A stretch of DNA of 64,000 nucleotides from Trypanosoma brucei (GCA_000002445.1 CM000208.1:3264001-3328000), one strand, 5' to 3'. Shown: positions 3,126 to 63,840, counted from the first letter of the stretch. Translations and numbers: made by a program. The notes: a model not told the origin generated them from the sequence alone.

Positions 3126-3957
3126 TAAAATTTTTAATAAGTTAACTTTCCTTCGCTTCCTTTCGCTCCACTCTCAGTTACCAATCCCGATCATCGGTTG
3201 AAGAAAGAACCTTGGTATATAAAGCATGGAGACACGATACAACTGCGTGCGGTAGTGGTCCCATCTACACGTCAGAGAGACGTTGAACGCAACAAGGGAG
3301 AAGTTATTACGGAACAACAAGAAATATTTACGGAGTCAAAGCCACCACTGGCGCCGGCCACCTACCAGTCCTCGTGGTGGTACCCGCTGAGGAAATCTCA
3401 GCGCCGCAACCCTCATATGCTCACATGAAGAGAAGCACATTTATATATAACATAAGTAAAAATATATGTGCTCTTCCCTTGCTTCTTCATTTTGCGCTCT
3501 TGTTACGGCGTTGTTCTTTATGTTATCATTTTTTTTTTTGTAAAACAGCACCTGCTTATCTACACCGCGAAAATAAATATGGAAGGGGGGACGGGCCGTC
3601 ACCCGCCAATCAGTCATGCGGTGCCAGCACTGATGCCGTAACAGGTCGTAATTACCACCACCACTACCAGACGCTTTCAACTCCTTTCCTTCCCTCTCCC
3701 AAGAACCTTTGCGCAAATACGATTAGATGCATGTCCTCATTTGCTTACGTTTCTTCATTCAATCCTTTCGCCCCCTCCCCTCTTGCCCTCTAATTAATTT
3801 TCTTCTTCCTCATTTCTCACTTTTTAGTTACTTAGATATCACTGCATTTTCTCCAAGTGGATTAGGATGGACGCCACACACACAGTGAAATGATAAACAA
3901 GAATAGAAAAAACAAAAATCTGTAGAAGAAACAATTCACGGTAAAATAATAAATGGC

Positions 3958-3983
3958 ATATATATATATATATATATATATAT
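3958..3983. repeat. (TA)13 microsatellite
   Basis: Read directly. It lies ~830 nt upstream of the CNNM gene ATG, next to a minus-strand polypyrimidine tract at 3890-3957. Confidence 0.9.
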
Positions 3984-4588
3984 TGCAATCTGACAAAGGA
4001 CAAACACACAACGAAGACAGCGGCAACTGGAGATTGAGAAAGGAGTAGCTTCAGGTGGTATGTGCATTTCATATGGACAATAGTGTGAAAAATGCACGAA
4101 ACAGGTCCCCATAAACCAGCCCCTACAGCCGTCCGATGGAGAAATCGAATAGGGGAGATACAAACGGCTGCGAGCCACTTAGACATTGATTAGGCACAGG
4201 TGAGCCAACAAACTATAAGAATAGGAAAAGAAGAACAAGCACGAGAGTGAAATACAACCCCTGTTAGTGGTGATGTTATTTTTTCCCCCCATCCCACTTC
4301 AAGTAGTGCACTTGACCTAATAGTTGCAGAACGCACCTCCTGCGCACGGAAGATGTCTGAAGAACAGAGGCCCCAACGAATGGACGATGACTGTGCAGGA
4401 AGAGAAGGCATATCTCAACGATGCTTACACACATGCATATATACACAAATACACATGCATATACGCATCCTAACTAATATATTTCCCAATGATATTTCCC
4501 CCGCCGCCCCTTGTCACGGGTGCATTGGCTTTGGTCACAGCTCTCCCCTGCGATGTCTCGCTTTCCCTCCATTCCTTTTTACTCTTCC

Positions 4589-6007
4589 TCAAAACAGGCC
4601 AAATCCTGTGGCGTAATGCATTGGCCGTTTCCCAGGATGCGGCACGTGCGTGAATGTTGTGAATCTTGGTTTCATGTCACCGCCGGTAAAACGGATGAAT
4701 GCTCCCTTGTTGCCCATTTGGTCACAATAGTTTGGTGCGCTGAAGACTGTAATGCATTTGCCACCGTGTTCTATCTCGTACCCCTCGTCCTTTACCTCAT
4801 GAGAGCGTACGAGCAGTTTAAGGTTGTTATTGTTTAGGAACGTCTCGGTTACGTCCGGCCCGAAAGACAGGCAGCTCACCCCACGCTTACTTGGGGCTCG
4901 CCCAGGCATCGGCTGTGGATCGGACCACAGGCTTTCGCAGATTAGACCGCTCTCAGGTATATCACGGAATCGGTTAGGGTGTTGCAGGTCATCCAATGTC
5001 ACCTTATCCGAGGAGTAAAGACCGCCGTGCACTACAAACACCTCGTTGTTAATAATGTGACCGATTGGAAGACTGTTGAATACCTCCGTGAAGAGGCGAA
5101 ACATTTCGCTGTTGTACTTTTGGGTTACTTCCCCTTCAAACCCATACATTCGGTTCATGGAAACACCCTCATGGTTCCCACGAGATAAGAAAAAGTGATC
5201 CGGGTAAAGTACTTTGTACGCAAACAGCGTCATGATATTTTCAAATGAGTACGAACCGCGGTCCACAAAGTCACCGTTGAAAAGGTACCGGTTCGTTTCC
5301 AAGGGATTCCCGTTCAACTTGAATATATTGAGGAGATCGTAATACTGCCCGTGCGTGTCACCACACACTGTTATTTCTTCACCAACTGGCACGTTGATGG
5401 ACACAAAGTTAGGGCATTTTTTCAGAATCTTCTGCACCTCCAACAGGATAAATATGACGTCGTGCCGGTCAATGAGTTTCTCTAACCTGAAATGCTCCTT
5501 CATCGCTTCCACGAATTCTACGGTGACGGTTTCATTTTCGATACGAGGCCCATCGTAATCAGCACGCACACTGCCCAGTTTAATTGTCTGCGACAGAGGT
5601 GCCTCGTCTGGAGTCATAATGGCATTTTCAAAGTTGATTCGGCGTATTTCCTTCTTACAAAACTCCACCTTCGCCTGCGCATCGGAATTTTGTGGTGCCA
5701 AATCCACAACTTTCTTGTAGTTTGTCAGCGCCTGCTTGTGTTTTCCAAGGCTCAGATACGCGGATGCCTTGTGGTAATAGGCCTTTGCGAAGGTTGGCTC
5801 TATCCCTAACGCCGCATCAGCGTCAGCAAGCGCCGCACCGGGAAGCTCAGCTCTAAGCTCTGCAAGTGCACGGTTGCAAAACAATGTTGGCGTTTTTGTC
5901 AGTTCGATAGCCTTCGTATACATGTCAATGGCAAGGTGCCACTTGCGCTCACTAAAGGCTGCGTTTCCCAGCTGCTTCAGCTTGTCTGCTTCCTCTACCC
6001 CGGCCAT
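4589..6007 (-). CDS. PP5: Serine/threonine protein phosphatase 5 (three TPR repeats + PPP catalytic domain), ~472 aa
   Basis: N-terminal TPR region (KLKQLGNAAF…AYYHKASAYLSLGKHKQAL) precedes the PPP catalytic motifs GDTHGQ, GDFVDRG, GNHE, HGG and SAPNY. The track ORF extends upstream through a (TA)n repeat from a TTG. I trimmed to the first ATG (MAGVEEADKL) at 6005-6007. Confidence 0.85.
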   Translation of the reverse strand: MAGVEEADKLKQLGNAAFSERKWHLAIDMYTKAIELTKTPTLFCNRALAELRAELPGAALADADAALGIEPTFAKAYYHKASAYLSLGKHKQALTNYKKVVDLAPQNSDAQAKVEFCKKEIRRINFENAIMTPDEAPLSQTIKLGSVRADYDGPRIENETVTVEFVEAMKEHFRLEKLIDRHDVIFILLEVQKILKKCPNFVSINVPVGEEITVCGDTHGQYYDLLNIFKLNGNPLETNRYLFNGDFVDRGSYSFENIMTLFAYKVLYPDHFFLSRGNHEGVSMNRMYGFEGEVTQKYNSEMFRLFTEVFNSLPIGHIINNEVFVVHGGLYSSDKVTLDDLQHPNRFRDIPESGLICESLWSDPQPMPGRAPSKRGVSCLSFGPDVTETFLNNNNLKLLVRSHEVKDEGYEIEHGGKCITVFSAPNYCDQMGNKGAFIRFTGGDMKPRFTTFTHVPHPGKRPMHYATGFGLF

Positions 6008-6062: not shown

Positions 6063-6076
6063 TATTTAGCTGAGTC

Positions 6077-6099
6077 ATATATATATATATATATATATA
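6077..6099. repeat. (TA)11-12 microsatellite in the PP5 5' flank
   Basis: Read directly. It is ~70 nt upstream of the PP5 ATG. Confidence 0.9.
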
Positions 6100-6824
6100 C
6101 AATAATCATAGTAATAGAGAGGATATGCAAAGAGAATGATTTAAAGAATGCTAATGTGTTGGCATTTGCACGCACTCTCTCGGAAAAGTTGATAATGACC
6201 CCCCGTTCCCGCCACCGGCCAGTCCCTAACGCGAAGCTGTGGTGACCCACTTTGCATCCATGGCGCGTTAATAGAGGGAGGAAGGTGAGACCAGCAAAGC
6301 ACGCCTGAGAAATAGGAAATGAGTCGAGGAACTTCAAATAGTCGAAACCAACCCCACATGCATTACGGCAACCACGAAACGGAAGACTTCCTCGAGAACT
6401 CTACACTGCTAAAAAAAAACGTAAAAAGACAGCCGTCAGTAACGGCGGTTAGAGGGCCTCTCAAAACGACTTCCCGTGTTGCGACCCTAATCATGAAACA
6501 CAAGATCATCAAGATCCCAAATCTCCGAGGCACACACGCCCACCACCGTAAACAACATACGTATACATACACATATGAGCGAAACCGACAACATCACGTG
6601 TGGGGGACCTCACAAAAATAGTTTTGGGAATCACGAAGAGCAGCATCTGTCGGCACATGCAATAAGTAACCCACACAGTCGTGGACCTCCCAGCACCGCC
6701 TCAATTACAGTAAATTAACGTGAGGAAGTAAGGTCCTCCGGAATGTAGAGAAAAATCGTCGTAGCAAGAACCTGCGGCTGCACGCCAACCGTAGTCCACA
6801 TGTGTGGGCTAAAGATGTTTCGGC

Positions 6825-8915
6825 CTACACAACGCCCATGCTACCGTTAACGGGCGTTGCACCATAGGTGGGGTGTGCAAAGTTGGTTGTGTTGTAGTAT
6901 TGGCAATCGAAAAATCGCTCTAGCTCACCGCGCTGCAGCCGCTCCGTTGTTTCCTCAAGCGCGTCAAATACGTAGTCTGGGAAGTGGTTGGAAAACATCG
7001 ATGGGGAGCACACCACGGTTTGCACGTCGTCCGGAGTCTCGAATGTAGGGACAAACACGTTCTCCCGCTTGCTACAACAACAACATGGGATGCAGCAACA
7101 GCTTTTAGGAGTCCACCGCACCACGGCCTTGCGTAGGTGCACCAGCGTATATGGGGGAAACAGTTTCCTCTGATCCATAGGGAGTACGCACGCTTTGGAC
7201 TGCAACTGCGCTCGCACTGCCCTGCTTTCCTCTGAAGATAACGGTTCACACCTGCCCGCCGAGCTGTTCCGCCTTCCTAGAATGCATCTGTTCGCGAAAA
7301 TCAACGGTTTCGACATGTTGCAGCTCTCCAGCACGTCCAGCACTGATTCCCGGAGATCGTCAAAAGTGTGAGAGGCCGTCCGTGGGATTACATCGTTTCC
7401 GACAAAGCAGGCTAAGATAAAATCTTTGCTGTAGTGCGCAAGAGCCGGTGACATCAGCCCCCCAGGTGGTGAATACGCAAGGCATCGCAACCGCTCCCGT
7501 ACGCCCTCTTCTGTGGCGTAGAGCAAGATGCTAAGTACCGCGGCAACACCAGCACCAAGCGAGTGCCCCAGGACGACGAGTCTGTAGCTATTGAGCCCAC
7601 CATGCAGCACCGCCTCGAGCACACCCGACTCCCTCAGCTCGCGCAACACGTATTCAGCAGACCGTTTTATCCCCCCGTGAACATAATAGTCGTTGGCGCA
7701 CGCGCGTTCACTATTCGCCAGATCGGGAATAAACAGTGGCTCCGGGGTAGCCGTCACATCGGTTATGCAGTCGACAAATGAGAGCGTCCCACGGATTGCA
7801 ACAACAATGGATGCCGTCTCTCGGTCCAAAGCGACGTAGAACACAGGGCGAAAGAGAGCATTCCTCCAATTAGAAAGGATAATATCTTCCTCTGCAAGGC
7901 CACTCACCTTGAGGGCAGCCGTCAGATCGCAGAAGCAACCCGCCCCCTGGTGCGAGTTTGCACGCTTGCGGCAGCACATCTTTGGGTCGCTGCAGCACAA
8001 CTTCGGTAGGCCAGTACAGAGGTTCATATGAAGATACAGAAGACACCCATAAGCGGCCATGTAAAAACGGCTGTACTGCCGCAGTTCCACCACACACTGC
8101 CGTTGCTGTGAGGTTAGCAAAGGGAAGTAGCGGGCCTGGCTACTAACGCGCTCTTTGCACCCATCATCTGGTGGCGGAAAGCGAACGTGCGCCACACGCT
8201 CAAGAAGCACCCGCCGCTGTGCGTCGTGTAGCAGGATCATGCCCGCAAATATGTCGCTGGGCACCAAATCATAACCTTGAAAGAACGCAGCTAGAGTAGC
8301 TGCTGCATCCTCAAACACGTCATCGTCGTCTTCTGCTGGACGGAAGCAACAGCAACAAAGGAGGCGACACCGCCTGCCCCACAACATCTTGTACTCCTCT
8401 GAGTCCCCCCACTTGCGACCCCCATTGGGGTCGAATGAAAGGAGGAGGGAGATGACATGCAGCAGCGAAACCACGATATTGACGAGCAGAGATGCGTACA
8501 GGGAGCGTCTTGAAAATGGATCGCACATTTTCATAAACCCGTCATACAAGGAATACTTCAAAACAACGGAACTGAGCGGCAAACAACTTAGCGCCGTTGC
8601 TGTCGTCAAATAAAGAAGCGTGCCCACATGACGCCGCTTCGACACATGGAATGGACCACCACGACAACTCAGCAACGCACTAGCAAGGTGAAACGAAGCG
8701 CCAACACAGCTGATGATTCCAAGGGCGTACACACACCGTTCGTATTTTGGAGGAACTCCTGGGCATCCCTTCATGTCAACACTGAACCATCCGCCAAAGC
8801 GCGATAGTATAAGGGTCCCACTAGTAGTGAGAGCGGAGAAAAATACGAAGCTGGATAGAAAAAAATCATCAGTTCCAGTGCGCCACTTCCTTCCTAACCA
8901 TTGCAACGCCGGCAT
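6825..8915 (-). CDS. Class 3 (fungal-type / sn-1 diacylglycerol-lipase-like) lipase with N-terminal transmembrane region, 696 aa
   Basis: ATG at 8913-8915. Several N-terminal hydrophobic helices are present. A GHSLGAG nucleophile-elbow motif lies within a lipase_3-like segment (…YRLVVLGHSLGAGVAAVLS…). Confidence 0.6.
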   Translation of the reverse strand: MPALQWLGRKWRTGTDDFFLSSFVFFSALTTSGTLILSRFGGWFSVDMKGCPGVPPKYERCVYALGIISCVGASFHLASALLSCRGGPFHVSKRRHVGTLLYLTTATALSCLPLSSVVLKYSLYDGFMKMCDPFSRRSLYASLLVNIVVSLLHVISLLLSFDPNGGRKWGDSEEYKMLWGRRCRLLCCCCFRPAEDDDDVFEDAAATLAAFFQGYDLVPSDIFAGMILLHDAQRRVLLERVAHVRFPPPDDGCKERVSSQARYFPLLTSQQRQCVVELRQYSRFYMAAYGCLLYLHMNLCTGLPKLCCSDPKMCCRKRANSHQGAGCFCDLTAALKVSGLAEEDIILSNWRNALFRPVFYVALDRETASIVVAIRGTLSFVDCITDVTATPEPLFIPDLANSERACANDYYVHGGIKRSAEYVLRELRESGVLEAVLHGGLNSYRLVVLGHSLGAGVAAVLSILLYATEEGVRERLRCLAYSPPGGLMSPALAHYSKDFILACFVGNDVIPRTASHTFDDLRESVLDVLESCNMSKPLIFANRCILGRRNSSAGRCEPLSSEESRAVRAQLQSKACVLPMDQRKLFPPYTLVHLRKAVVRWTPKSCCCIPCCCCSKRENVFVPTFETPDDVQTVVCSPSMFSNHFPDYVFDALEETTERLQRGELERFFDCQYYNTTNFAHPTYGATPVNGSMGVV

Positions 8916-9282
8916 TCTACGAAATAGACGTGAGGAGAAGAACGCAAACTTTCAATAACTGCAAGAATGGACACACCAGCGTGTTAAGCAACCAGTGGAT
9001 GCAGCAGAACCCTGGTACACCATGCACAATAACCCCCCGAGTAAAAGCAACATTAATGGCTAAACCGAAACCCAGTGGCTGTCATTCACCACCGCTCAAC
9101 GCAAAATGCACCCTTCCCGACTTACGGTAGACGGCAAATAAAGTATCAGCAACATCATATGAATTAGAACAGTGTCCCAGGTAGATATTGCACCATGCCT
9201 CGTCCGTGTGGCAACTTAAAGTGCGACACGCAGCGGGCATATTAACAACCGAGCATTAACATAACCATAGCACATGTGTACG

Positions 9283-10020
9283 CAAGTACGAGCAAGCACA
9301 ACAAACACCTGGTGGCACAATAAGGAATATCACAGGGAAGAAACTAGAAGAAAGGAGGATAGACGGTGTGTACACAAGGCACCGACATACTCGCCTCGCC
9401 TCTTGGAAAGCCACCACCCACAACGCACCACCAAAAAGGCATGCCGTGGCTACGGGCCTCCTCAGAAATAGAAGGTAACACTGAAGAAACAGCAATGGGG
9501 GAAATTACTGCAGGTACGTGTCAGTCAAGTACAGCACTCTCGCTGAAAGCGTTGGTATCAATCAGCACTAAGTTGTCACTCAGTCGCGCACTACAACTTC
9601 TGTCCTCATACACAGCCATGCAGCAGAACATCTCCACCACATGTATCACCCCACAATGCATGCAAAGCACGGTGTGGGGCGGTTGTATGGGCGTCGATAC
9701 AGCAACAGTGAATAAAGATGCAGTGTAAACACACATAGCAGGAAGGAGTTAGGGACGGTAAATGCCGGTACAATCAACACCGCTGCTCAACATTTGTACA
9801 CATTCAAGAGTCCTCATTGGATGTGTCGGTCCGCCTGTCGTTAGACAGTTTCTCATCGTCGCAGCGGTGTCGTGCCCATAACATGTCACATTTCGCATAG
9901 TCCAATGATCCAAGAGTCAAAAGAGAAGGGAAAAAAGAGTAACGAGGGGAAGAAGGGAGGAATCAGATAGATTGGTAAACGCAAAGTTGGTTTCTCGCTC
10001 ATGATGGGTCGTCAGTGCGC
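9283..10020. repeat. Copy 1 of a ~740-bp dispersed direct repeat (second copy at 63101-63840, ~99% identical)
   Basis: Direct reading of both stretches shows they are collinear, with about 7 single-base differences. Flanks diverge immediately outside. There is no poly(A) tail and no obvious target-site duplication. The short ORFs inside are preserved only because the copies are near-identical. Confidence 0.85.
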
Positions 10021-10631
10021 ACTACAACTGCAGTCACATCACGCAGAGTAAACGCTATTGGAATATCTCCGCCTCCTGAAATCGCCCCACAACGATTTCT
10101 GCACATGTGAGGCGTTAGACAGAGACGTTGTACTTGATATCAGTGTAAAATAAGGACCATGTTGGCACGGAAAAGACAAGACAATGCAGTTGTCATGACA
10201 TCTTTTCACTGATGCATCCCCTATTCGCATAACTGTTACGTAAACATAATCACACATTACTCATAACACAAGTTGCTAGGACAAGCGACTTCACTACACG
10301 GTGTTGCTACGGAAACATACCTCACTGTGCTAACATACACTGCATCAGAATGCGATTACATGCATCTCAGCGTCACCTGGAAATCTGGGATACAATCGCA
10401 TCATACACTTGTCTAGTTTCGTAAGCAATGAGTTCTTGGTCACATACCACAGGTAATGTACTCTCTCAAATGAAAATATTGTGATGAGCACCGCTCGAGT
10501 ATTCTGCAATGATTCCGTTTGTCGACTCACAATGTGACGATGGAAAAGAATGAGGATATCAAGTTATTGCATTTTAGGTTTTCATGTCAACTAGAAAATC
10601 AGAGAGCCGACACCACATCCCCTCAGTATCT

Positions 10632-12686
10632 CTACGCAACTAGCTCCGTATCCATTGCCTTCACCGCCGGAATACAATATTCAAATGAAAGCAGAACAAT
10701 ACCAATATCCCACGCGTCGTCACAGGGCCCCAAGTTGTTTTCGTGTATAAACGGTAATTCACATTTTTGGTTCGGTATTTGTGAGGTGCGCTTGGAACGG
10801 CTCCGTCCAACTTCAATTAATCCCTCATAAACGCCAGGCTGTAGGTGAGAAACTCTCGTTACCATTTCACCACTGTTGAGTGAATAAGGTGTACGGTTAG
10901 TTTCTACAACATGTGGCATGTGTTGGTCCTCAGTTCCGGGGATGCATAACGTTGCAGGGGAATCTTTTGCGTCTGCAAGTGGCGACAGTGCCTCACAATA
11001 GGGGAGAGGGTGACCACAGCACCCAATAAAACTGTTGATGAAGGAAGCCGCGGAGCACTTTGATGAAATAGATAAAAATATATCAATAACTTGCTTTAAG
11101 AAGTCACATTCGACTGAAGTTTGCTTGCAATGCTCACTGGACCAGGAGTACATCATTTCCACGGCTGCGTTGATTTCAACAAAAAGTAAAGGTTTTTTAT
11201 CTCGGTGAAGAGAGTCTGTTGAAGGCAATGAAACGCGACCAAAGTTTACCGTCACGTGCTGATGTGGAAATACACGCCATTCCCCCAACTCTTGGAGAAC
11301 AAAGATGACTCCTCCACAAAGAGGTCCTTCCTGCCGGGAAGCAGACACCACATTTTCCGTATTTCCATATTCGGGTATAAAGCATGCCCCCACAAGAGAC
11401 TCATTGGAAATAGGGTATCTTTGCAACACCTCAGCTTCAGAAAGGACAAACCACGGAGGGCAGAGATGCAAGAAGAAACCGCAACAGTCAAAGTGAAAAG
11501 GAAGATTGCGTACCGTGCCACCATGTCGCAAGCATAGTTTGCGTTCGGATATTTCGGTCATTGTGAACCAACAGCATGGCGTTGAAGCTAAGTGGATTTG
11601 GGCATCATCATTTTCCTCCATATCTTCATTGTCCATACGATTCTCAAGCTGTACAGGCTCTCCTGTAGCAGCCCAGTAGTTCAGGACCCGGCCTGCATGA
11701 AACGAAGAGTAATTAGCGGAATAACGTCTCTGATTTGCCCGATCACTGAAATCCACATTCATCAATGTGATATCCTCCTCAACATGAAATTGGTGAATGT
11801 CTTGCATTCGTGGAAGGAAATATTTTGAAAACGGTCCACGAAACGGAACAATCCATGCACGCCAATAACCAGTTGAATCGGAACTAGAAGCTGGCAGCTC
11901 TATCTCTGAGGACGAAAAAATATCATCAAAAAACCATCCATCTTTCTCCCACACAATATGACCTGAATAAGGTGTCTCCACAGCAGAAACTGTCGAGACA
12001 GATTCAGCAGCAAGTGATGGTTTGCTTTCCAATGCTGCTACCATATTCTGATCCATTAGATTTGATCCTTTAGACAGTTGGTGAAGAAACTGCAACCCTC
12101 CTTCGGTGCGTCGGAGCTCTTTCTGAAGCAAACGAGTCCTCATACAATCAGCAATATTCAGCCGCTGTTCGCAACGAAAGAGTTGAATAATGATTGGTGT
12201 CGGTGATGCACCGGGAACCTCCGAGGGTTCCACGCTAACCTTCGTAGTAGACAACAGCAATGACTGAGCGGAACTGCTCCCCACACACCAATCACGCATT
12301 GATGGAACAGGGTTTGCTGAAATCGTGGGGTACCTGAAATTCCCGTCATTTATATAATTCAGAAGCGTTTCTTGCACCCCTTCCGGACAGTAGTAGCAAG
12401 GCGTAGCAGACAGAGGCAAAAGGGAATTCGGCGCCACGGTGGGACATCGTGTCTCTCCTGTTCTCTTAAGAAAATCTCCCCTCTTCCGCAATACAATATA
12501 CCCCCATCGCAGCATCAGTCGAGGTAGACACGGAAATGCACTCCGCAGAGCCTCCGCCAAACTATGGAAGGAAATAAATGTCATTACAGTGCAGAGGCCC
12601 CTTCCCCACCCTACTTGTGACAAGAACAGAACACATGCATCACACATGCAAAAGATAAAAATATATACGTCGACACAAAGTACCAT
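10632..12686 (-). CDS. Hypothetical protein (Cys-rich central region), up to 684 aa; true start uncertain
   Basis: Long uninterrupted minus-strand ORF with an ATG at 12684-12686. The first ~30 residues are low-complexity, read through a TA-rich tract, so the real start may be an internal Met (M35 or M58). No family recognised. Confidence 0.5.
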   Translation of the reverse strand: MVLCVDVYIFIFCMCDACVLFLSQVGWGRGLCTVMTFISFHSLAEALRSAFPCLPRLMLRWGYIVLRKRGDFLKRTGETRCPTVAPNSLLPLSATPCYYCPEGVQETLLNYINDGNFRYPTISANPVPSMRDWCVGSSSAQSLLLSTTKVSVEPSEVPGASPTPIIIQLFRCEQRLNIADCMRTRLLQKELRRTEGGLQFLHQLSKGSNLMDQNMVAALESKPSLAAESVSTVSAVETPYSGHIVWEKDGWFFDDIFSSSEIELPASSSDSTGYWRAWIVPFRGPFSKYFLPRMQDIHQFHVEEDITLMNVDFSDRANQRRYSANYSSFHAGRVLNYWAATGEPVQLENRMDNEDMEENDDAQIHLASTPCCWFTMTEISERKLCLRHGGTVRNLPFHFDCCGFFLHLCPPWFVLSEAEVLQRYPISNESLVGACFIPEYGNTENVVSASRQEGPLCGGVIFVLQELGEWRVFPHQHVTVNFGRVSLPSTDSLHRDKKPLLFVEINAAVEMMYSWSSEHCKQTSVECDFLKQVIDIFLSISSKCSAASFINSFIGCCGHPLPYCEALSPLADAKDSPATLCIPGTEDQHMPHVVETNRTPYSLNSGEMVTRVSHLQPGVYEGLIEVGRSRSKRTSQIPNQKCELPFIHENNLGPCDDAWDIGIVLLSFEYCIPAVKAMDTELVA

Positions 12687-15514: not shown

Positions 15515-15542
15515 GCTCTGCCACAAAGTTGGTTAAGCTGTG

Positions 15543-15562
15543 ATATATATATATATATATAT
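15543..15562. repeat. (TA)10 microsatellite ~30 nt upstream of the Aha1 ATG
   Basis: atatatatatatatatatat read directly. Confidence 0.9.
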
Positions 15563-16313
15563 TTCTCCTCGTTGGACTGTTCTGCCTCGTTAGACTTGAC
15601 TCCTCTTTGACACCGTTTCACTTAGCGCCCGGAAGATTTGAAAATATCTTCTCCCTTCTTGTCTTTTTTTTTCCTAGTTGTTATGAGATAAGATCTTTCT
15701 ACTTCCTTTTTTGTCTTGTTTAAACGCCCCTCTACCTCTTGAATCCTTTTGACCACTTTACACGCCGCTATCGAATAGGAAAAATTTTCACATAGGGGAA
15801 AACGGTATACTTCTTTTCACCTGTTTAAAGTAGTTCTTTTGCTTTATTCCGCACCTGCACACAAGTATATACCATGCGCACACGCGTGTGTATGAGTACA
15901 ACCTCGTTACCTTCTTATGTGCTTCTGTTGCCGTTCAAAGTTAATTTCCGCAGCTCCCGCTTTTAGCGACACCCACACCCCACCGGTGTACAGCGGTGCC
16001 CGCACAGTAACGTTGTTGCTGATTTCCTTTCAGTTCGTTTCGGTTTAACGGCGCTCGATGGGACCGGTGGAAGCATTAATAAACAAAAAAAGAAGGCAGA
16101 AACAATCCGGGTGAACTGATGTGTCACGCGACATTGCTTCTGTCGCACAAAACCTTAATTGGCTTCTTTTCTATTTTTCCCCTCCATTCCTTTACCGCTT
16201 CTTTTCACCCAATTTCACTATTTTTTCCCCCCAGTGGATGCAATCTTTCCTAGGCACAGATGGGCATTCATTAAGTGTCGCGCCGACTATTTGCTCCCTT
16301 CCCTTCAAAATCT

Positions 16314-25555: not shown

Positions 25556-27141
25556 CTACAACTTTCCCTCGTTCCATTTGTTTGACATTGTGTCATTTTA
25601 GAAAAAAATAATAAAAATGAATAAGCAAACAGCTGCAACTATGCCATAAACTGACGGCACATATCACACAACCACAGTGGAGACGAAAGAAGTAAACAAA
25701 TGGAAGTGGCACAACACCACCACCAAAAAAAAAATAAGCAACTGTTAGGAGCGGGTGGAGGAGATCGATGGCAGCATCAAATGTTACACGCACAAAAAAG
25801 ACAAACACGCGGCACCCAACCCCCGGCCCTCACGTGGTGACAACTGAACTTTCTGTACAACTCAGAAATAAAGGATTAATTACGGAACCGCCTCGTGGCA
25901 ATCCACACATCCGTCATTCATTAAAATATGCAACAAACGGTGTAGTCATCAGAACCACGCACCCGAAGGTGCTCAACTGCTCATTTAGTTGCGCAGATTG
26001 TGAAAGGACTTCGGAACCGTCTGCTCAAACTATTTTCCCATCCTTCATCGCCGTTTAAGGGGTCGCTTTGCCTCAGAATGTCGTTGCATAACAAAGAGAA
26101 GGAAAGAAAAGGAAAAATAAGATACTTTGGGGTATCTCTCTATTCTCAAAAGTAGCTATGAGTGCGTTATAGTAAGCACAAACAGAAATTATATATATAT
26201 ATATATATATATGTACTCCCATGTTCACGCACCTGAAAGTGAGACAATGACACGGTTGGGAGAAGAGAGGGGAAGACAACAACAAAATATTAATCATGGG
26301 GCCCAGCAAAAAAAAAAAAAACAGCTTTACAGAGGGAAATACAGAAGAACAAGTAGGGAAACAGCAGTAAAGCACCAACACACATACACATCACAAGAGG
26401 TAAAACGAATAAATACAAAAACAAGTACCATCACCACGCACAATCAAATACGGCAAATCGTTTAAGCACAGAAAAAGAGGCGACGCACTTTTCTTTCTTT
26501 ATTTTCTTAATTTTTTTCTTGTTTATTGTTGTTGTTGTTGTCTTTATTCTCACCCCCGCCCTTTCTTTCTTTCCCTCACATTTTCGGAGTCTCCTGTATT
26601 GAAAATGAGAGAAGGGAGGTAAGGGTAAAACCCACCAAAAGGGTGGAGACATGCCCACCCGCTTAAACCCACAAAAGGTGTAAAACTCAAAGGAGTTGAA
26701 CAAGACACATACACATGAAGCATAGCCGTGGTAAATGCGACAGGGAAGAAACAGAGGCACATATCGAATAGAATTTTCTTTTTTTTTTTTTCTCGCTCAG
26801 TGATGGCGTAACCTCACCCCCCTCTGTGTTTTATATAAAAGCAAGAGAGTTGAAAGGGTACACATTCAGGGAAAGGAAGGGAAGAGAAAGGGAGGAGAAG
26901 GGGAACCCACTACCACGAATCCCCTTGAAATATATTCTTTCCAAAATAGACACAATCTAAAGGTGCCGCTGGAATTGCATACATGCTTCCATGTTCGTTC
27001 GTCTGCGGGAAAAAAGTCCAAAAGTAACACTCTTCTTTATATTCCCCACCCTCATTTACCACTACTTTCCACCATCCTTTGTTGTTTCACATAATCAAAA
27101 GGCACTGATAGAAAAAAAAGTGAATATATCCGACACGTTGG

Positions 27142-27146
<5 letters not shown>

Positions 27147-27177
<31 letters not shown>
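27147..27177. repeat. (TA)15 microsatellite in the spacer downstream of GSK3
   Basis: Read directly. A similar (TA)n lies at 26190-26212. Confidence 0.9.
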
Positions 27178-27183
<6 letters not shown>

Positions 27184-27666
27184 TTATTTATATGTATGCA
27201 TGTGCAAGTTTAACAGGAGTACCTTTGTGAGCGCGCAAGGAGTTTCCTTCAACCATCACCACGGCACGCTTCATTGCCCTAAACGACAGCGTCATGCGTT
27301 TCACCCAAGTACCGCCAGCCAAAATCCCACCTACAGCAATTATACTTTTATATTCATATCCTTCTTAATCTTTTTTAGCTCCTCTCTTCCCCACACCACA
27401 TAAGAGTCACATTGTACACTGTTAGTTGCTTCGTTCACCTCACACCGCACCTCACCTCACCTCGCCTTTCCTTCTCCCCCTTTCCTTCCTTTCCCTTTTC
27501 TCGTCTCACATTGCAAGTTTACAGTACCCGATGAAACAAAACGGTCACAAGAGAAGGAAGCGAAGAAGAATAATAACAAAAAAAGAAAGGAGGAAAAGGC
27601 AACGGCAAGGAGCTCATCCATTCAACAATAGTAATAATGATAATATTAAAAATAAGAGGCGGGGTC

Positions 27667-30212: not shown

Positions 30213-31926
30213 GTAGTGAATAGTGCGATTTTGAAAACAACAACAACACCAAAAAAATAATTTGATAAAGGAATAAATAAATAGAATAAATAGTGATAAT
30301 CAATCAGTGAGAGAGGAAGCAAAAGCCGCCGATGTCAAACTGATATTATGCCAATGACCCAACGTTAGTGGGCGTGACCGACGACCTACTTGCCCCTTTC
30401 TTTCTTTCTTTTTGTGTTGTTTTATTTTAGTTTGGTGTTATTGTTGCTGTTTTTCGACCAGTCAAGGGAACGCCTAACTTATCTACACCCCGTTCGTTGA
30501 ATACCTTTCCCTGCTATTTTCTTTTTCAGTTTTTTTTTTTTTAAATCCCCCTTGGAGGTGTTTGTTCACTCCTTAACTCTTCTCTCTAACCGCTGCTACT
30601 GTTGTTTCCTTCTGTGCAAATATTTGCTTACCTTCTTTTTTTCCTGTTATTTTGCTTTTGATTCAATTCTCGTGTGGTTGTTCGCTTATGTTAAGTTGTA
30701 TATTAATTTCTTTGTTCCCCTTGTTTTGATCTGGTTCTTTATTTTCTTCTTCCCTGTACTGTCCCCTAAAGATTATTCGAAAAACAGCCGGTGGATCCAC
30801 ACGGCGGACGTAAAAGAATGAAGGTGAGGAAAGTGGTTTTAATGCCGCTACATAGATAGTTTAAAGCACATGCACAGACATACGTGTGGTGGTATCAACC
30901 AGGGTGATGAATTAGAGCGGAAAAACAATAGCAAACAAGCAAGCAAGATTGAAAAAGAAGAAAAAAAGGGAGGGAGTGAAAAATAGTTTCGCAACAAGAG
31001 CAATTAAATACAGAACAAAAGGTAGTGGCTAACCAGAAAAGAAAAGGAAATACCATAATCAACCGGTGAAGGAGAAAGGCACCAGAAAGATAAAGACAAA
31101 GAAAGAACAAGGGGGAAGGAAGAGGAAAAGCGTTGGTTGGAACTATCCGCATGCTGAGAATAACGTTCACTACACCGTTGCGACGCAGTTTACCACTGGT
31201 TTAGGGAAAGCCAGGCGACCAGCACATAACCGTCTCTGGCACAACAAAAAAGACAGTGACATAAACACGAAAAACACGGAAGACGCCACACTATAACCTC
31301 ACTCTTCACTCAACAACACCACCACCAACAAAAAAAAAAAAACAAACCAAATTAAGTCGGAAAACATTAAAAAGTAAAAAAGAAAAAAGAAAAAAACAGT
31401 TATGGCACTTTAGCCCTCCCCTTCCCGCCTCCCCCATCAAAATTACCTTTTAAATCCTTCTTGTGTACCTTCCCATTAATTCCTAATCTTTACCCCTTTA
31501 TCGTTCTTCATCTTACTTTCTGTATTATTCTTCGACTTCTAAGAGAAATAAATTTTCTCTTATATTCACTCACTCCTCTAATCGTTATTCCATTCCCTTT
31601 ATTTTCTGTTGTTTCTTATCGCCCGTTACTCACGCGGAGTGGCTTTCATATACATGCATGCGGTCACAAAACCAAAAAAAAACAAGAGGGAAGAAATAAC
31701 ACACGGCTACGTTTGAAATATTTTTATTGTTGGCATCATCATTCCCCATGGTTACATATTGACAACAACGCAAAACAAAAGGGACCACGGAAGCAAAACA
31801 AAGAAGCAACAATTTTATTTGACAATATCTATAGCACCGCCCCCCCCTCCTCTTGCTCTTCCTTCCTTCCTTTATTTCTTCTTTTCACTCTTTTACATTC
31901 TTCTGATTCGCTTTTGTTACTAACGT

Positions 31927-31947
<21 letters not shown>
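31927..31947. repeat. (TA)10 microsatellite
   Basis: Read directly. It sits in the spacer between the 680-aa hypothetical gene and GSK3. Confidence 0.85.
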
Positions 31948-31957
<10 letters not shown>

Positions 31958-32396
31958 GATAATAATAATAAGGGAATAAGGAAGAAGCAACCTCCGCTCT
32001 CCAACACCACATGCCTCCATTTCCCTCTTCTTGTTTAACCAGTCGGGTTTCTGCTTATCCATTTATTGAATTATATCAATGGTTGATATAAACAAGGGAA
32101 ATATATATATTATCTTCATCTTGCTTATTAACTGTCTCAGAAACTCCTGTGGATGTAAAACAGAACGGAGCGATGAAGGAAATGAGCAAACAAACAAATT
32201 ACGGTCACCATCGACGCCTTATCATCGTCTCTCTCTCTCCCTTACAGGTGCTGGTTATTATTATTTCCCTCCCCCTTCGTTTTTCTCCCTTCTTTTTTTC
32301 TTTTTGTAGAGAAAATATACATTTATCCCACCTTTTATAACTTCCTTTCTGGGAGAATTCTCATGGCATCAATTTTACCTACCCACTTTAACCCAT

Positions 32397-40301: not shown

Positions 40302-41530
40302 TGCCGTACTTCTCCGTTGAAAGTGTGGCTCCCTACCGCAGACCTCCCTCTCCCCTACAACCTTACTTCCCTTCACTCCTCCGTCAAACGGCTACCACAC
40401 TAAAGATATTACGAACGGCCCCACTACGGATATATGTTGCTAAGAACGAAAAATACCCAAACGTATTCTGCAAGGTCAGTGGAGTCCCACCGTCAACCCT
40501 ACCTAGCGCTCTTGCCTCTCCGCGTCCGATGACGAAGAGTTGGACAACAGAGCCGCTAACTTAGGCACTATTTACCCTATTCGTTGCTCCGGTTTATTTT
40601 CAGTCGGAGGATAACGGCGCCTCCTTGTCCGTTGTGGTGAATAATGGTGGAAATGCAAGAAAAAAGAAAAACGCAGTTCACCCAACGGGTGTGCACATGC
40701 GTAAAAAAAAAAGCATAAGAATACATTTCAAGACGATGTTGCAAGCGATAAAATTACAGTAATAAAAAAAAGTGGGTGGAGTACCTACACAAACACTCAG
40801 TTACACACTCCCTGTCACTACAAGTTGGTGGAGGACCTTCGCTTGTGTACCCATCCACGTGCTAGTGAGTATTCGAAGGCACATGTTCTTGTTCAGGTTT
40901 TCCACACAACAAACATGGGAGTGGGCAATAAATATGTGACGCGGTCAAATAAGTGGCAGGGAGTAGATAGGGTTACACCTACTGGGGAAATGGAAGGTAT
41001 GTAGTGGTAACAAGGTACACGAGGAAATATGCTTCAAACAATAACAGGTGAAGGAAACACTGTGAAGCAGACATCACACGATACAAACACAAAACGTGAG
41101 TAGCCCAAGACGTAGCATATATCATATACGTGTATTCATATATATATATAAACATATGCAACCTGTTTCAGGCAAAATTAACGCATCTGATTAAGTACTT
41201 CTCCCACCGGATGTGAGTACACTTCAGTAGCACCGATGAGGTTATGTGGCAACACACACATTCTTCCGTTTGACCCCGTATCGCACCCCTTGTAGCATGT
41301 ACTCCGTTGGCGTTGCTACCGCTGCTACTCTCCCTTTACCTGCTCATAACGGCTGGATGTGATTGACGACAGTTAGGGACCGGGTAGACAGAAATGCGCG
41401 CCAACCTGACACTACCTTAATTGTAAGACCCCTCCTTGCCACACCACAGGAAAAGCCAGTGGACACGAGACTGGATGGAGCCGAAAGAAATATTCCGTTT
41501 GTGTTGTTTCACCGATGGCACCACTTTGGC

Positions 41531-61661: not shown

Positions 61662-62660
61662 TCAAACAGTATCATTGTCGTTTGGCGATCCGCTACGGCG
61701 GCGGGGCGGCTCCAGACGGCGGGGCACTAGATAGCCTTCACCACTTCTCACACGGAAGAAAATATTAACAGAGAAGGCACCGATGACCAGACCGATGACG
61801 CTTCCACCCAAAATATCGGAAAAATGATGACGATTGTCACGGGTCCTTGAGGCCGCAACACATATCGCAAGATAAATTGGAAACATGCTTAGGATGATAC
61901 GCCACACGGGGCCGCTGTTAAAAGCACGTGATAAACCAAGGAAATACATTGTCAGTGGCGTAAATGCAGCAAATGCGCAGCTGCTGTGACCTGAAGGAAA
62001 TGACAGACGGCCTTCTCTGGCGAGGCTGCACGCATTTGACGGCGGCGATGTCGCATTAAAGCCCTCACGCCTCAACCGATCAAGGAAATCGGGACGAAGT
62101 CTTCCAGCGTAAATTTTAAGTACATCGACAATACCAAGCGAAAAGAAAAAGGCGAAAACCACTGAAAGAATCCACAGGTTAATCACCTGATCGACAATAA
62201 ACTTTCGCTGCACCTTCCTCTCAAAGGAAGGAGCTGGTGGTAGATTTTCCAAGCCATTGCGTTCCCTCACAGAAGCGCCGCCTCTGTTGGCGGCTCTCTC
62301 TTCCGACAAAACGTTCGTAGAAGACGTGATGGAATTAGATGATGGTTCAGGCAATTGCTCGTCCATATACCACTCCCCTACCGGGGAGTAACGCTCACGC
62401 ATTTTCTCGATTATAAAGATAAATAAACATGATACAAGAGCCATAACTACGAGACTCCAGTCAGGGAAAGTCTCCTTCTCGGCAAATGAGTTGTTGATAC
62501 TCAGATCGTCCCACGAGAATGTGCGGCAGTATGGGCGGATCAGTCTCCCGAGGAGAAATCCAGTTGCACCGAAACAGAAAGCGACAAGGTAATCCAACAA
62601 CCGAAGCACTTTCGCATAGTACAAGTAAACGGCAAAAGAGGAACGACCTCCAGTGGCCAT
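61662..62660 (-). CDS. PAP2-superfamily lipid phosphate phosphatase, 332 aa, six TM helices
   Basis: ATG at 62658-62660. All three PAP2 motifs are present in order: KIYAGRLRPDF (K-x6-RP), SFPSGHSS (PSGH), SRTRDNRHHFSDILGGSVIG (SR-x5-H-x3-D). Confidence 0.75.
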   Translation of the reverse strand: MATGGRSSFAVYLYYAKVLRLLDYLVAFCFGATGFLLGRLIRPYCRTFSWDDLSINNSFAEKETFPDWSLVVMALVSCLFIFIIEKMRERYSPVGEWYMDEQLPEPSSNSITSSTNVLSEERAANRGGASVRERNGLENLPPAPSFERKVQRKFIVDQVINLWILSVVFAFFFSLGIVDVLKIYAGRLRPDFLDRLRREGFNATSPPSNACSLAREGRLSFPSGHSSCAFAAFTPLTMYFLGLSRAFNSGPVWRIILSMFPIYLAICVAASRTRDNRHHFSDILGGSVIGLVIGAFSVNIFFRVRSGEGYLVPRRLEPPRRRSGSPNDNDTV

Positions 62661-63100
62661 TTTCGCACTTCTTGAAATGATTAATTACTCCCAAGAACTA
62701 CGACTTGTATCAAACACGGGGGAAAGCAAGATGTAGAGAGCACTAAAGGAAGACAACAAACTCGGAAAGAAAACACCAGGCCAGAAAATAGGCGGTCTTT
62801 CACTACCACCAAACAGCAAACATCACACAACCATACCGTCTGCAAATGCATTATTATGAAACTCAGTGCGCTGCGCCACATTGGCACGGTAACAAGAGGC
62901 ACACGGCACAAAAAAAGACCATACCACACAACTGCCACCCACAATAACATCTACAAGCCGACAACACGGGGCTCAGCTTTAACGATACTGACAAGTGCAC
63001 TCCGGTAAGTGTAGTGATATTTTTCAAGAAGCATAACATAAGCCTCACTTCTACACCACCGATAACGCGTGCAAATAAGCCTGGCGGTGAAACTCCAACG

Positions 63101-63840
63101 CAAGTACGAGCAAGCACAACAAACACCTGGTGGCACAATAAGGAATATCACAGGGAAGAAACTAGAAGAAAGGAGGATAGGCGGTGTGTACACAAGGCAC
63201 CGACATACTCGCCTCGCCTCTTGGAAAGCCACCACCCACAACGCACCACCAAAAAGGCATGCCGTGGCTACGGGCCTCCTCAGAAATAGAAGGTAACACT
63301 GAAGAAACAGCAATGGGGGAAATTACTGCAGGTACGTGTCAGTCAAATACAGCACTCTCGCTGAAAGCGTTGGTATCAATCAGCACTAAATTGTCACTCA
63401 GTCGCGCACTACAACTTCTGTCCTCATACACAGCCATGCAGCAGAACATCTCCGCCACATGTATCACCCCACAATGCATGCAAAGCACGGTGTGGGGCGG
63501 TTGTATGGGCGTCGATACAGCAACAGTGAATAAAGATGCAGTGTAAACACACATGGCAGGAAGGAGTTAGGGACGGTAAATGCCGGTACAATCAACACCG
63601 CTGCTCAACATTTGTACACATTCAAGAGTCCTCATTGGGTGTGTCGGTCCGCCTGTCGTTAGACAGTTTCTCATCGTCGCAGCGGTGTCGTGCCCATAAC
63701 ATGTCACATTTCGCATAGTCCAATGATCCAAGAGTCAAAAGAGAAGGGGAAAAAGAGTAACGAGGGGAAGAAGGGAGGAATCAGATAGATTGGTAAACGC
63801 AAAGTTGGTTTCTCGCTCATGATGGGTCGTCAGTGCGCAT
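63101..63840. repeat. Copy 2 of the ~740-bp dispersed direct repeat (pairs with 9283-10020)
   Basis: Collinear and ~99% identical to copy 1. The differences I can see are g/a at the aggatagRcgg position, caagtac/caaatac, ctaagtt/ctaaatt, ccaccac/ccgccac, catagca/catggca, ttggatg/ttgggtg and one G in the gaaggg(g)aaaaa run. Confidence 0.85.

What the first reader, a model, noticed from the sequence alone, without database searches (positions are those of the whole stretch)
9283..10020. ~740-bp, ~99%-identical direct repeat in two intergenic spacers (second copy at 63101-63840)
Two non-coding stretches are collinear over ~740 bp with only about 7 substitutions, in the same orientation. Their flanks are unrelated. 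One copy lies between the lipase gene and a hypothetical gene, the other just upstream of the PAP2 gene. There is no poly(A) tail and no target-site duplication. I also see no similarity to what I remember of the ingi/RIME ends, so it does not look like a classical retroposon. Near-identity implies either very recent duplication or ongoing gene conversion. The ~120-aa and ~71-aa ORFs inside are conserved only trivially. It could be an unclassified dispersed repeat family, a relic of a segmental duplication boundary, or a conserved regulatory or ncRNA module.
Basis: seen in the sequence. Interest (0 to 1): 0.6.

Follow-up and report, generated by a model that had tools for sequence, protein, structure and literature searches.

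The report
Duplicated snoRNA gene cluster TB10Cs4
The 742-bp repeat is a second, partial copy of a well-studied Trypanosoma brucei cluster of small nucleolar RNA genes (TB10Cs4), kept almost identical to the first copy 54 kb away by sequence exchange, so it is a known kind of element and not a new repeat family.

Summary
Window 9280-10021 and 63098-63839 are collinear over 742 bp, with 7 substitutions (all transitions), no indels and unrelated flanks.

It is not an anonymous repeat. The window is T. b. brucei TREU927 chromosome 10, and all genes here are on the minus strand. On that strand each copy carries four snoRNA genes of the published cluster TB10Cs4:
- C/D snoRNA TB10Cs4C3, which matches the published primers exactly.
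- H/ACA-like TB10Cs4H3 and TB10Cs4H4 (Rfam 81-88 bits).
- The C/D snoRNA between H3 and H4, presumed to be TB10Cs4C4.

Each copy also carries the 3' two-thirds of one more C/D gene. Locus A continues upstream with that gene's 5' part and TB10Cs4H2, so copy B is a partial second copy.

Both loci are present in T. b. gambiense and T. b. equiperdum. T. vivax has its own 789-bp, 99.1% identical pair: one copy in the same CAP-Gly/PAP2 spacer, the other near the lipase. Between the two species the snoRNA genes are only 66-80% identical. Within T. brucei, no informative site separates A copies from B copies, and the repeat's edge differs between strains. This points to ongoing gene conversion and away from one recent duplication.

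The element is already known. The concerted-evolution detail is a modest addition.

The parts
9280..10021 (-). Repeat copy A. This is the downstream 742 bp of the complete TB10Cs4 snoRNA cluster, lying between the 684-aa hypothetical gene and the lipase gene.
63098..63839 (-). Repeat copy B. This is a partial second copy of the cluster in the CAP-Gly to PAP2 spacer. Every feature inside it sits at the copy-A coordinate plus 53818.
   Evidence: the same locus is present in T. b. equiperdum IVM-t1 (L002) and T. b. gambiense (L005)
10063..10128 (-). H/ACA-like snoRNA TB10Cs4H2. It is present at locus A only, just outside the repeat. It is a single hairpin followed by an AGA box.
   Evidence: Rfam RF01862, 78.7 bits against a gathering score of 50; fold z-score -3.6. 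No H2 hit at locus B.
9960..10046 (-). C/D snoRNA next to H2, called 'CDx' here; by position it is probably TB10Cs4C2. C box GUGAUGU at 10042-10036, D' box CUGA at 10015-10012, D box CUGA at 9966-9963. The repeat boundary (10021/10022) cuts through its D' guide, so copy B (63778-63839) holds only the 3' part and has no C box.
   Evidence: Boxes read. The C box and a 21-nt stretch spanning the D' guide and D' box are conserved in T. vivax, 21/21 identical. Alignment of the A and B boundary.
9919..9962 (-). Polypyrimidine tract between CDx and C3, present in both copies. It is a plausible trans-splicing/polyadenylation signal for the snoRNA precursor.
   Evidence: Sequence. That precursors are trans-spliced and polyadenylated comes from PMC6562600. 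Its use at this site is inferred.
9782..9865 (-). C/D snoRNA TB10Cs4C3 (copy B at 63600-63683). Terminal stem GCUGC/GCAGC, C box ACGAUGA at 9859-9853, D box UUGA at 9790-9787.
   Evidence: The published silencing primers match exactly in both copies. It is 80% identical to the T. vivax homolog, with both guide regions 100% conserved.
9630..9695 (-). H/ACA-like snoRNA TB10Cs4H3 (copy B at 63448-63513). The A/B difference at 9636 turns a G-C pair into G-U in the lower stem.
   Evidence: Rfam RF01533, 81.4 bits (A) and 86.1 bits (B) against a gathering score of 45. Both copies give the same predicted fold.
9508..9623 (-). C/D snoRNA between H3 and H4, presumed TB10Cs4C4 (copy B at 63326-63441). 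C box AUGAGGA at 9609-9603, D' CUGA at 9583-9580, D CUGA at 9524-9521, terminal stem CUGCA/UGCAG.
   Evidence: Boxes and terminal stem. It is conserved in T. vivax at L012 2682-2798, including the D' guide. The 5th nucleotide upstream of D' is C, which fits the published Gm target. The name is assigned by position and has not been checked against a published sequence.
9401..9463 (-). H/ACA-like snoRNA TB10Cs4H4 (copy B at 63219-63281, identical sequence).
   Evidence: Rfam RF01534, 88.4 bits in both copies against a gathering score of 50; fold z-score -3.25.
9280..9400 (-). 3' tail of the unit, with a polypyrimidine tract (about 9363-9334) followed by AG dinucleotides. No snoRNA was recognised here. 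The last 18-25 nt (9280-9305) are repeat sequence in TREU927 and T. equiperdum OVI, but not at locus A of T. b. gambiense or T. b. equiperdum IVM-t1.

Best explanation
The repeat is the snoRNA gene cluster TB10Cs4 of Trypanosoma brucei chromosome 10, present at two loci 53.8 kb apart within the same minus-strand polycistronic transcription unit.

Locus A, upstream of the lipase, carries the full set: H2, a C/D gene (CDx), C3, H3, a C/D gene (presumed C4) and H4. Locus B, upstream of PAP2, carries a collinear partial copy: a 5'-truncated CDx, then C3, H3, C4 and H4.

From published work on trypanosomatids, the clusters are transcribed by RNA polymerase II as part of the polycistron. The precursor is trans-spliced and polyadenylated at the polypyrimidine tracts, and the individual snoRNAs are then cut out. 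The H/ACA-like RNAs guide pseudouridylation of SSU rRNA (H4) and LSU-alpha rRNA (H3). C3 guides two 2'-O-methylations near the 3' end of SSU rRNA and is also needed for LSU precursor processing. C4 guides a Gm in SSU rRNA and is implicated in ITS2 cleavage.

Inferred from the comparisons made here, the two loci stay about 99% identical because of repeated ectopic gene conversion (concerted evolution) and not because of one very recent duplication. A likely consequence, which is inferred and untested, is a doubled gene dose for C3, H3, C4 and H4, two of which are abundant rRNA-processing snoRNAs.
For: Identity of the element:
- Rfam covariance models hit at full length on the minus strand, far above the gathering scores, in both copies: TB10Cs4H4 at 88.4 bits and TB10Cs4H3 at 81-86 bits. 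TB10Cs4H2 (78.7 bits) lies 42 nt outside copy A.
- The published TB10Cs4C3 silencing primers (PMC6411936, supplementary table) match exactly at 9844-9863/9784-9803 and at 63662-63681/63602-63621.
- The window is TREU927 chromosome 10. The lipase is 100% identical to Tb10.05.0120 and the PAP2 is 100% identical to XP_827876.
- The H/ACA genes fold as single hairpins followed by AGA, with z-scores of -2.9 to -3.7.
- The C/D genes have box motifs and terminal stems, and their guides are conserved in T. vivax.
- Pol II polycistronic expression with trans-spliced, polyadenylated precursors is.

Gene conversion:
- Both loci sit at the same positions in T. b. gambiense and T. b. equiperdum IVM-t1.
- Over the 716 shared positions, within-genome A-B differences are 7, 10 and 3. 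Orthologous differences are 6-9 for A and 6-15 for B. None of 9 parsimony-informative sites supports an A-versus-B split, and 3 unite the two copies of one genome.
- The 3' edge of the repeat is polymorphic between strains.
- T. vivax has its own pair, 789 bp at 99.1% identity and about 49 kb apart. One copy is in the orthologous CAP-Gly/PAP2 spacer.
- T. brucei and T. vivax snoRNA genes are only 66-80% identical, and the spacers between them do not align.
Against: - The name C4 is assigned by position and by the fit to its published Gm target, not by a published sequence. The original cluster map (Liang et al. 2005; Fig. 4 of Michaeli et al. 2012) could not be read here.
- rRNA complementarity could not be tested because no T. 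brucei rRNA sequence was available to the tools.
- The gene-conversion inference within T. brucei rests on 9 informative sites. Some sharing between paralogs could come from assembly or polishing cross-talk between the two copies.
- Gene order in the unit differs between species: T. vivax has C4-H4-C3-H2-CDx-H3. The lipase-side copy also sits one gene further upstream in T. vivax. Simple tract-by-tract conversion between two fixed ancestral loci does not explain this easily.
- Published read counts show no dosage effect: two-copy H3 is about as abundant as one-copy H2.
Confidence: 0.9

Rival explanations
1. The pair is the product of a single recent segmental duplication in T. brucei. The 7 differences are simply mutations that accumulated afterwards, with no later exchange between the copies.
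For: Identity is very high, the repeat has no indels, and its edges are sharp. The two copies are collinear.
Against: Both loci are already present in three T. brucei-group lineages. Paralogs within a genome are no more diverged than orthologs between strains. No informative site separates A copies from B copies, and the repeat edge differs between strains. T. vivax has an equivalent 99.1% pair, with one member in the same intergenic spacer.
Confidence: 0.07
2. The second copy was re-created independently in the T. brucei and T. vivax lineages by recurrent duplication from one locus into the other. Under this view there was no continuous concerted evolution of two ancient loci.
For: The gene content and order of the duplicated segment differ between species. 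The lipase-side copy lies on opposite sides of the hyp684 gene in the two species. T. theileri and T. cruzi have no copy at either locus.
Against: This requires the same CAP-Gly/PAP2 spacer to be hit twice. If pre-existing homology there guided the event, it is gene conversion by another name. The T. brucei strain data show exchange after the loci already existed.
Confidence: 0.2
3. The unit is a non-autonomous retroposon or some other unclassified dispersed repeat (RIME-, ingi- or SIDER-like) that only happens to overlap snoRNA-like sequence.
For: It occurs at two dispersed intergenic sites in the same orientation.
Against: There is no target-site duplication and no poly(A) tail, and no further copy in the 64 kb. 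About half of the unit is accounted for by five snoRNA genes, whose boxes and guides are conserved in T. vivax. One edge cuts through a snoRNA gene instead of ending at an element terminus.
Confidence: 0.02
4. The repeat is an assembly artefact or encodes small proteins (the 120-aa or 71-aa ORFs).
For: ORFs of 54-120 aa exist in the unit.
Against: Both copies, each with its own flanks, are present in three independent assemblies, one of them long-read. The ORFs have no Pfam match above threshold. The longest ORF is antisense to the transcription unit, and the ORFs overlap the snoRNA genes.
Confidence: 0.01

Closest known systems
T. brucei snoRNA cluster TB10Cs4 (Liang et al. 2005 nomenclature; Michaeli et al. 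2012, PMC3273796; Chikne et al. 2019, PMC6411936)
   Same: It is this cluster. The organism and chromosome are the same. The Rfam families RF01862, RF01533 and RF01534 are named after its members, and the published TB10Cs4C3 primers match exactly.
   Different: Nothing differs for copy A. Whether the literature counts copy B as a second repeat of the cluster could not be checked, because the figure that gives copy numbers is not held as text.
Tandemly repeated snoRNA clusters of trypanosomatids (for example TB6Cs1 and TB11Cs2 in T. brucei, or the Leptomonas collosoma clusters)
   Same: They also mix C/D and single-hairpin H/ACA-like genes. They sit in Pol II polycistrons, are processed from trans-spliced and polyadenylated precursors, and have repeat units that are homogenised.
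   Different: Here the two copies are not in tandem. They are about 54 kb and roughly 25 protein-coding genes apart, and the second copy is truncated.
Concerted evolution of dispersed multigene families by ectopic gene conversion (for example rDNA, or tubulin and other tandem or dispersed arrays in trypanosomes)
   Same: Paralogs within a species are about 99% identical, while orthologs between species are 66-80% identical. The tract boundaries vary between strains.
   Different: This family has only two members, and the tract is short (about 0.75 kb). The mechanism is inferred from sequence patterns only.
ingi/RIME and SIDER retroposons
   Same: They are also dispersed and found in intergenic regions.
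   Different: This unit has no poly(A) tail, no target-site duplication and no element termini, and its content is snoRNA genes.

Membership tests
Rfam RF01533 (TB10Cs4H3) and RF01534 (TB10Cs4H4) | Covariance-model score at or above the curated gathering score, with a full-length match | tested here: met
   H3 scores 81.4 and 86.1 bits against a gathering score of 45. H4 scores 88.4 bits in both copies against 50. All matches cover the whole model on the minus strand.
Trypanosomatid H/ACA-like snoRNA | A single hairpin with an internal pseudouridylation pocket, followed by an AGA box about 3 nt from the 3' end | tested here: met
   The CM alignments show the hairpin and the terminal AGA (...CCAAGA and ...GGAGAU). 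MFE folds give the same hairpins with z-scores of -2.9 to -3.7. The one A/B difference in H3 keeps the pair, changing G-C to G-U.
Box C/D snoRNA (TB10Cs4C3) | Sequence identity to the published RNA | tested here: met
   The published sense and antisense silencing primers match both copies with no mismatches. The published northern probe GTACACATTCAAGAGTCCTCATTGG can also be read on the + strand of both copies.
Box C/D snoRNA (general) | A 5' C box (RUGAUGA) and a 3' D box (CUGA) brought together by a terminal stem, plus internal D'/C' boxes | tested here: met
   C3 has ACGAUGA ... UUGA with stem GCUGC/GCAGC. The presumed C4 has AUGAGGA ... CUGA with stem CUGCA/UGCAG. CDx has GUGAUGU ... CUGA. 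The T. brucei C boxes deviate by 1-2 nt, while the T. vivax homologs of C3 and CDx have the canonical GUGAUGA.
Box C/D snoRNA (general) | A guide of 10 nt or more complementary to rRNA, ending next to D or D', with the target at the 5th paired nucleotide | not testable with these tools
   No T. brucei rRNA sequence was available. Indirect support: the guide segments are 100% conserved in T. vivax, and published targets exist (C3: two Nm near the SSU 3' end; C4: a Gm in SSU).
Box C/D snoRNA, copy B of CDx | An intact 5' C box | tested here: not met
   The repeat starts inside the D' guide. Upstream sequence at locus B has no C box, and the guide is degenerate. This copy is probably a pseudogene fragment.
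Non-LTR retroposon (ingi/RIME/SIDER) | A 3' poly(A) or A-rich tail and a flanking target-site duplication | tested here: not met
   There is no A tail at either end. The longest direct match between the flanks is 4-5 nt.
Concerted evolution / gene conversion between paralogs | Paralogs within a genome are more alike than orthologs between lineages, and site patterns contradict an ortholog tree | tested here: met
   T. brucei A/B are 99.1% identical and T. vivax A/B are 99.1% identical, against 66-80% between the species. None of 9 informative sites supports A versus B among three T. brucei-group genomes. Caveat: the number of sites is small and assembly cross-talk is possible.

The most novel reading that the evidence does not exclude
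Two dispersed copies of the TB10Cs4 cluster, about 50 kb apart in one polycistron, have existed since before T. brucei and T. vivax diverged. Ectopic gene conversion has kept them about 99% identical in each lineage throughout that time. Conversion-tract edges are still moving between present-day T. brucei strains, possibly under selection for a double dose of the rRNA-processing snoRNAs C3 and C4.
Probability: 0.5. Interest if true: 0.35.

Novelty: already known. Interest (0 to 1): 0.22.

Why it matters
The main value is correct annotation. The repeat should be labelled as snoRNA genes, with TB10Cs4C3, H3, C4 and H4 present in two copies per haploid genome, and not as an unknown repeat.

There are practical consequences:
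- Knock-outs or genome edits of TB10Cs4C3 or C4, both used as models for trypanosome-specific rRNA processing, must target both loci. That is four alleles.
- Published probes and RNAi constructs cannot tell the two loci apart.
- Short-read assemblies break at this repeat. Two examples were seen here.

The evolutionary side is a small, clean example of concerted evolution between non-tandem ncRNA gene copies in a genome without individual gene promoters. It may interest snoRNA and trypanosome-genome specialists, but it does not open a major question.

Tried and rejected
- Reading the unit on the + strand as ORFs. The 120-aa (+) ORF and the 71-, 79- and 54-aa (-) ORFs have no Pfam family above threshold, so this was rejected.
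- The bacterial-type promoter/terminator scan gave nothing above shuffle expectation, and it is not relevant to a trypanosome anyway.
- A search for a third or relic copy in the window found none.
- A search for a relic of H2 upstream of copy B found none in TREU927, IVM-t1 or gambiense. A faint similarity seen is not significant.
- A search for the alternative 18-nt edge patch of gambiense/IVM-t1 elsewhere in the window gave no match.
- A search for snoRNAs in the region upstream of H2 (10130-10632) found only one weak C/D candidate and no convincing H/ACA hairpin.
- Attempts to read Liang et al. 2005 for the original cluster map and copy number failed because the paper is not held. The supplement of Michaeli et al. 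2012 is not held either.
- T. congolense loci could not be fetched because no contigs are on record. Exact-protein look-ups of TREU927 genes mostly failed even though the window is TREU927.
- The T. theileri and T. cruzi loci contain neither the H/ACA genes nor the C/D guide motifs. They therefore date the arrangement no further back than the Salivaria.

Full report
**1.

A MAFFT alignment of the two stretches with 100-nt flanks, the repeat finder and a base-by-base comparison at a fixed offset of 53,818 nt all agree. Window 9280-10021 and 63098-63839 are collinear over 742 bp, in the same orientation and with no indels. They differ at exactly 7 positions: 9363, 9529, 9572, 9636, 9737, 9821 and 9931. 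All are A/G transitions on the + strand.

Identity stops abruptly at 9279. At the other end it fades over 10022-10030, where 6 of 9 bases match. Beyond that the flanks do not align. No third copy or relic is present in the 64 kb. There is no target-site duplication, since the flanks share at most 4-5 nt, and no A-rich tail.

**2. Context: a trypanosome polycistron on the minus strand**

Every long ORF in the window is on the minus strand. Copy A lies between a 684-aa hypothetical ORF (10632-12686) and a class-3 lipase gene (6825-8915). Copy B ends 438 nt upstream of the ATG of a PAP2 phosphatase gene (61662-62660).

The lipase is 100% identical to T. b. brucei TREU927 Tb10.05.0120 (XP_827851). 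The PAP2 is 100% identical to TREU927 XP_827876. The window is therefore TREU927 chromosome 10, and the repeat has to be read in the minus sense.

**3. What the unit contains**

An Rfam scan of the whole window at curated thresholds gave five hits, all on the minus strand and all to trypanosomatid H/ACA snoRNA families named after one T. brucei cluster:
- TB10Cs4H4 at 9401-9463 and 63219-63281 (88.4 bits each, gathering score 50).
- TB10Cs4H3 at 9630-9695 and 63448-63513 (81.4 and 86.1 bits, gathering score 45).
- TB10Cs4H2 at 10063-10128 (78.7 bits), which lies 42 nt outside copy A and has no counterpart at locus B.

The CM alignments and MFE folds show the single hairpin followed by an AGA box that is typical of trypanosomatid H/ACA-like RNAs, with z-scores of -2.9 to -3.7. 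The one A/B difference inside H3 (9636) changes a G-C pair to G-U and leaves the fold unchanged.

Between the H/ACA genes lie C/D snoRNAs that Rfam does not model.
- **TB10Cs4C3, 9782-9865.** It has the terminal stem GCUGC/GCAGC, the C box ACGAUGA and the D box UUGA. The silencing primers published for TB10Cs4C3 (PMC6411936, supplementary table) match both copies exactly.
- **Presumed TB10Cs4C4, 9508-9623.** This C/D gene between H3 and H4 has C, D', C' and D boxes and a terminal stem. The fifth nucleotide upstream of its D' box is C, which fits the Gm target published for TB10Cs4C4. I assign the name by position only.
- **CDx, 9960-10046.** This third C/D gene follows H2 directly. The upstream edge of the repeat (10021/10022) falls inside its D' guide, so locus B has only the 3' two-thirds, with no C box and a degenerate guide. 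That fragment is probably dead.

H2-CDx and H3-C4 are themselves old paralogs. The two C/D genes have near-identical D' guides, and the H2 and H3 models cross-hit at 22-25 bits.

Two polypyrimidine tracts, at 9962-9919 and about 9363-9334, make up most of the remaining spacer.

**4. How it works**

This part rests on the literature, not on tests made here.
- Trypanosomatid snoRNA clusters are transcribed by Pol II within polycistrons. [quoted passage not shown] That accounts for the polypyrimidine tracts.
- TB10Cs4H4 and H2 are assigned to pseudouridines in SSU rRNA, and H3 to one in LSU-alpha (PMC4855143, table S1).
- TB10Cs4C3 guides two 2'-O-methylations near the 3' end of SSU rRNA. Its silencing causes 5.9- and 5.1-kb LSU precursors to accumulate and lowers 5.8S and srRNA4 (PMC6411936).
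- TB10Cs4C4 is proposed to guide a Gm in SSU rRNA and to act in ITS2 cleavage as a functional analogue of U8 (PMC3273796).

The mature RNAs from the two loci would be identical for H4. They would differ by one nucleotide in H3 and C3 and by two in C4. Published probes and RNAi constructs therefore cannot tell the loci apart.

**5. Recent duplication or gene conversion?**

Both loci, each with its own flanks, were recovered from two further assemblies:
- T. b. gambiense DAL972 (L004, L005).
- The long-read T. b. equiperdum IVM-t1 assembly (L003, L002).

The pair therefore predates the split of these lineages and is not an assembly artefact.

Over the 716 positions that all six copies share, the differences are as follows:

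| Comparison | Differences |
|---|---|
| A versus B within one genome | 7, 10, 3 |
| A versus A between genomes | 6-9 |
| B versus B between genomes | 6-15 |

Of nine parsimony-informative sites, none separates A copies from B copies. Two unite TREU927 A with TREU927 B, and one unites IVM-t1 A with IVM-t1 B. Four group IVM-t1 A with the gambiense and IVM-t1 B copies.

The downstream edge of the repeat is also polymorphic. In TREU927 and T. equiperdum OVI, copy A matches copy B as far as 9280. In gambiense and IVM-t1, copy A carries an unrelated 18-nt patch from about 9297, with 13 of 18 positions different, and a further difference at 9305. Copies that evolved independently after one duplication would not show these patterns. 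They are what exchange between the loci produces.

Two caveats apply. The number of sites is small, and read cross-talk during assembly or polishing could imitate some of the sharing.

**6. Outgroups**

In T. vivax (GCA_021307395.1) the Rfam models find H4, H2 and H3 upstream of the PAP2 ortholog, at L007 9156-9770, in the orthologous CAP-Gly to PAP2 spacer. They find the same three genes, with identical scores, on the lipase side at L012 2830-3440.

The two T. vivax copies form a 789-bp direct repeat. They are 99.1% identical and lie about 49 kb apart on the same contig. Homologs of C3 and CDx lie inside that repeat, and a C4 homolog lies just upstream of the lipase-side copy.

Between T. brucei and T. 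vivax the snoRNA genes are only 66-80% identical, although the guide segments are perfectly conserved, and the spacers do not align. Each species thus has its own near-identical pair. This is the hallmark of concerted evolution.

Two complications remain.
- Gene order differs. T. vivax has C4-H4-C3-H2-CDx-H3, and T. brucei has H2-CDx-C3-H3-C4-H4.
- The lipase-side copy lies upstream of the ortholog of the 684-aa gene in T. vivax but downstream of it in T. brucei.

Recurrent re-duplication between the loci, or descent from ancestral tandem arrays, therefore cannot be excluded.

T. theileri and T. cruzi keep the same protein-gene synteny but show no TB10Cs4-type snoRNA or guide motif at either locus. 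The two-locus arrangement can thus be traced only within the salivarian trypanosomes.

**7. Comparison with what is known, and verdict**

The element is the published cluster TB10Cs4. The membership tests were met: the Rfam gathering scores, the single-hairpin/AGA architecture, exact primer identity for C3, and C/D boxes with terminal stems. Complementarity to rRNA could not be tested here. The retroposon criteria (A tail, target-site duplication) were tested and not met.

The early T. brucei snoRNA screens were, in their authors' words, biased towards snoRNAs in repeated clusters. The repeated nature of this cluster was therefore very probably what led to its discovery, but I could not read the figure that gives copy numbers.

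Its suggestion of an unclassified repeat family is not. The finding is ordinary and already explained. What this analysis adds is a minor point: the non-tandem arrangement, the truncated CDx at locus B, and the evidence for ongoing gene conversion with a parallel pair in T. vivax.

Noticed in passing
window 9635/9636; L001 position 1; L008 position 1 (= L007 9858): Two short-read assemblies end a contig exactly at a base that distinguishes the two repeat copies. T. equiperdum OVI contig CZPT02001895.1 starts at window 9635, next to the A/B variant at 9636. T. vivax contig NLFJ01000365.1 starts at the T. vivax A/B variant at L007 9858.
   Followed up: yes
window 9529 (copy B 63347): One of the seven A/B differences (C in copy A, T in copy B, minus sense) is the fifth nucleotide upstream of the D box of the presumed TB10Cs4C4. 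That is the position which would pair with a methylated nucleotide if this guide is used. The segment is not conserved in T. vivax.
   Followed up: partly
window 10336-10412 (minus): There is a candidate additional C/D snoRNA upstream of H2, with AUGAUGC followed by two CUGA motifs. Its fold z-score is only -1.4 and it is not conserved in the T. vivax loci. The published numbering (C3, C4, H2) implies that further cluster members lie upstream, but none was convincingly identified in 10130-10632.
   Followed up: partly
L012 2798-3582 and 3922-5475, against window 9280-10128 and 10632-12686: The lipase-side snoRNA copy lies between AHSA1 and the ortholog of the 684-aa hypothetical gene in T. vivax. 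In T. brucei it lies between that gene and the lipase. The snoRNA gene order within the unit also differs between the two species.
   Followed up: partly
L009 10001-12481 and L010 10001-12273: T. theileri and T. cruzi have two tandem PAP2 genes downstream of the CAP-Gly gene and no snoRNA signals there. T. brucei and T. vivax have one PAP2 gene plus snoRNA copy B. T. congolense protein names suggest that a second PAP2 (TCIL3000_10_11530) lies next to the lipase (TCIL3000_10_11520).
   Followed up: no
window 3955-3997, 6074-6116, 15540-15582, 27140-27192, 31925-31979, 41135-41177: (TA)n microsatellites recur in several intergenic spacers of the window.
   Followed up: no
L001 3619-4956, against window 4589-6007: The PP5 phosphatase gene is called as 441 aa in the T. 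equiperdum OVI record and its translation differs from the window's, whereas it is 472 aa in the window, in gambiense and in IVM-t1. This is probably an annotation or frameshift difference in that assembly.
   Followed up: no
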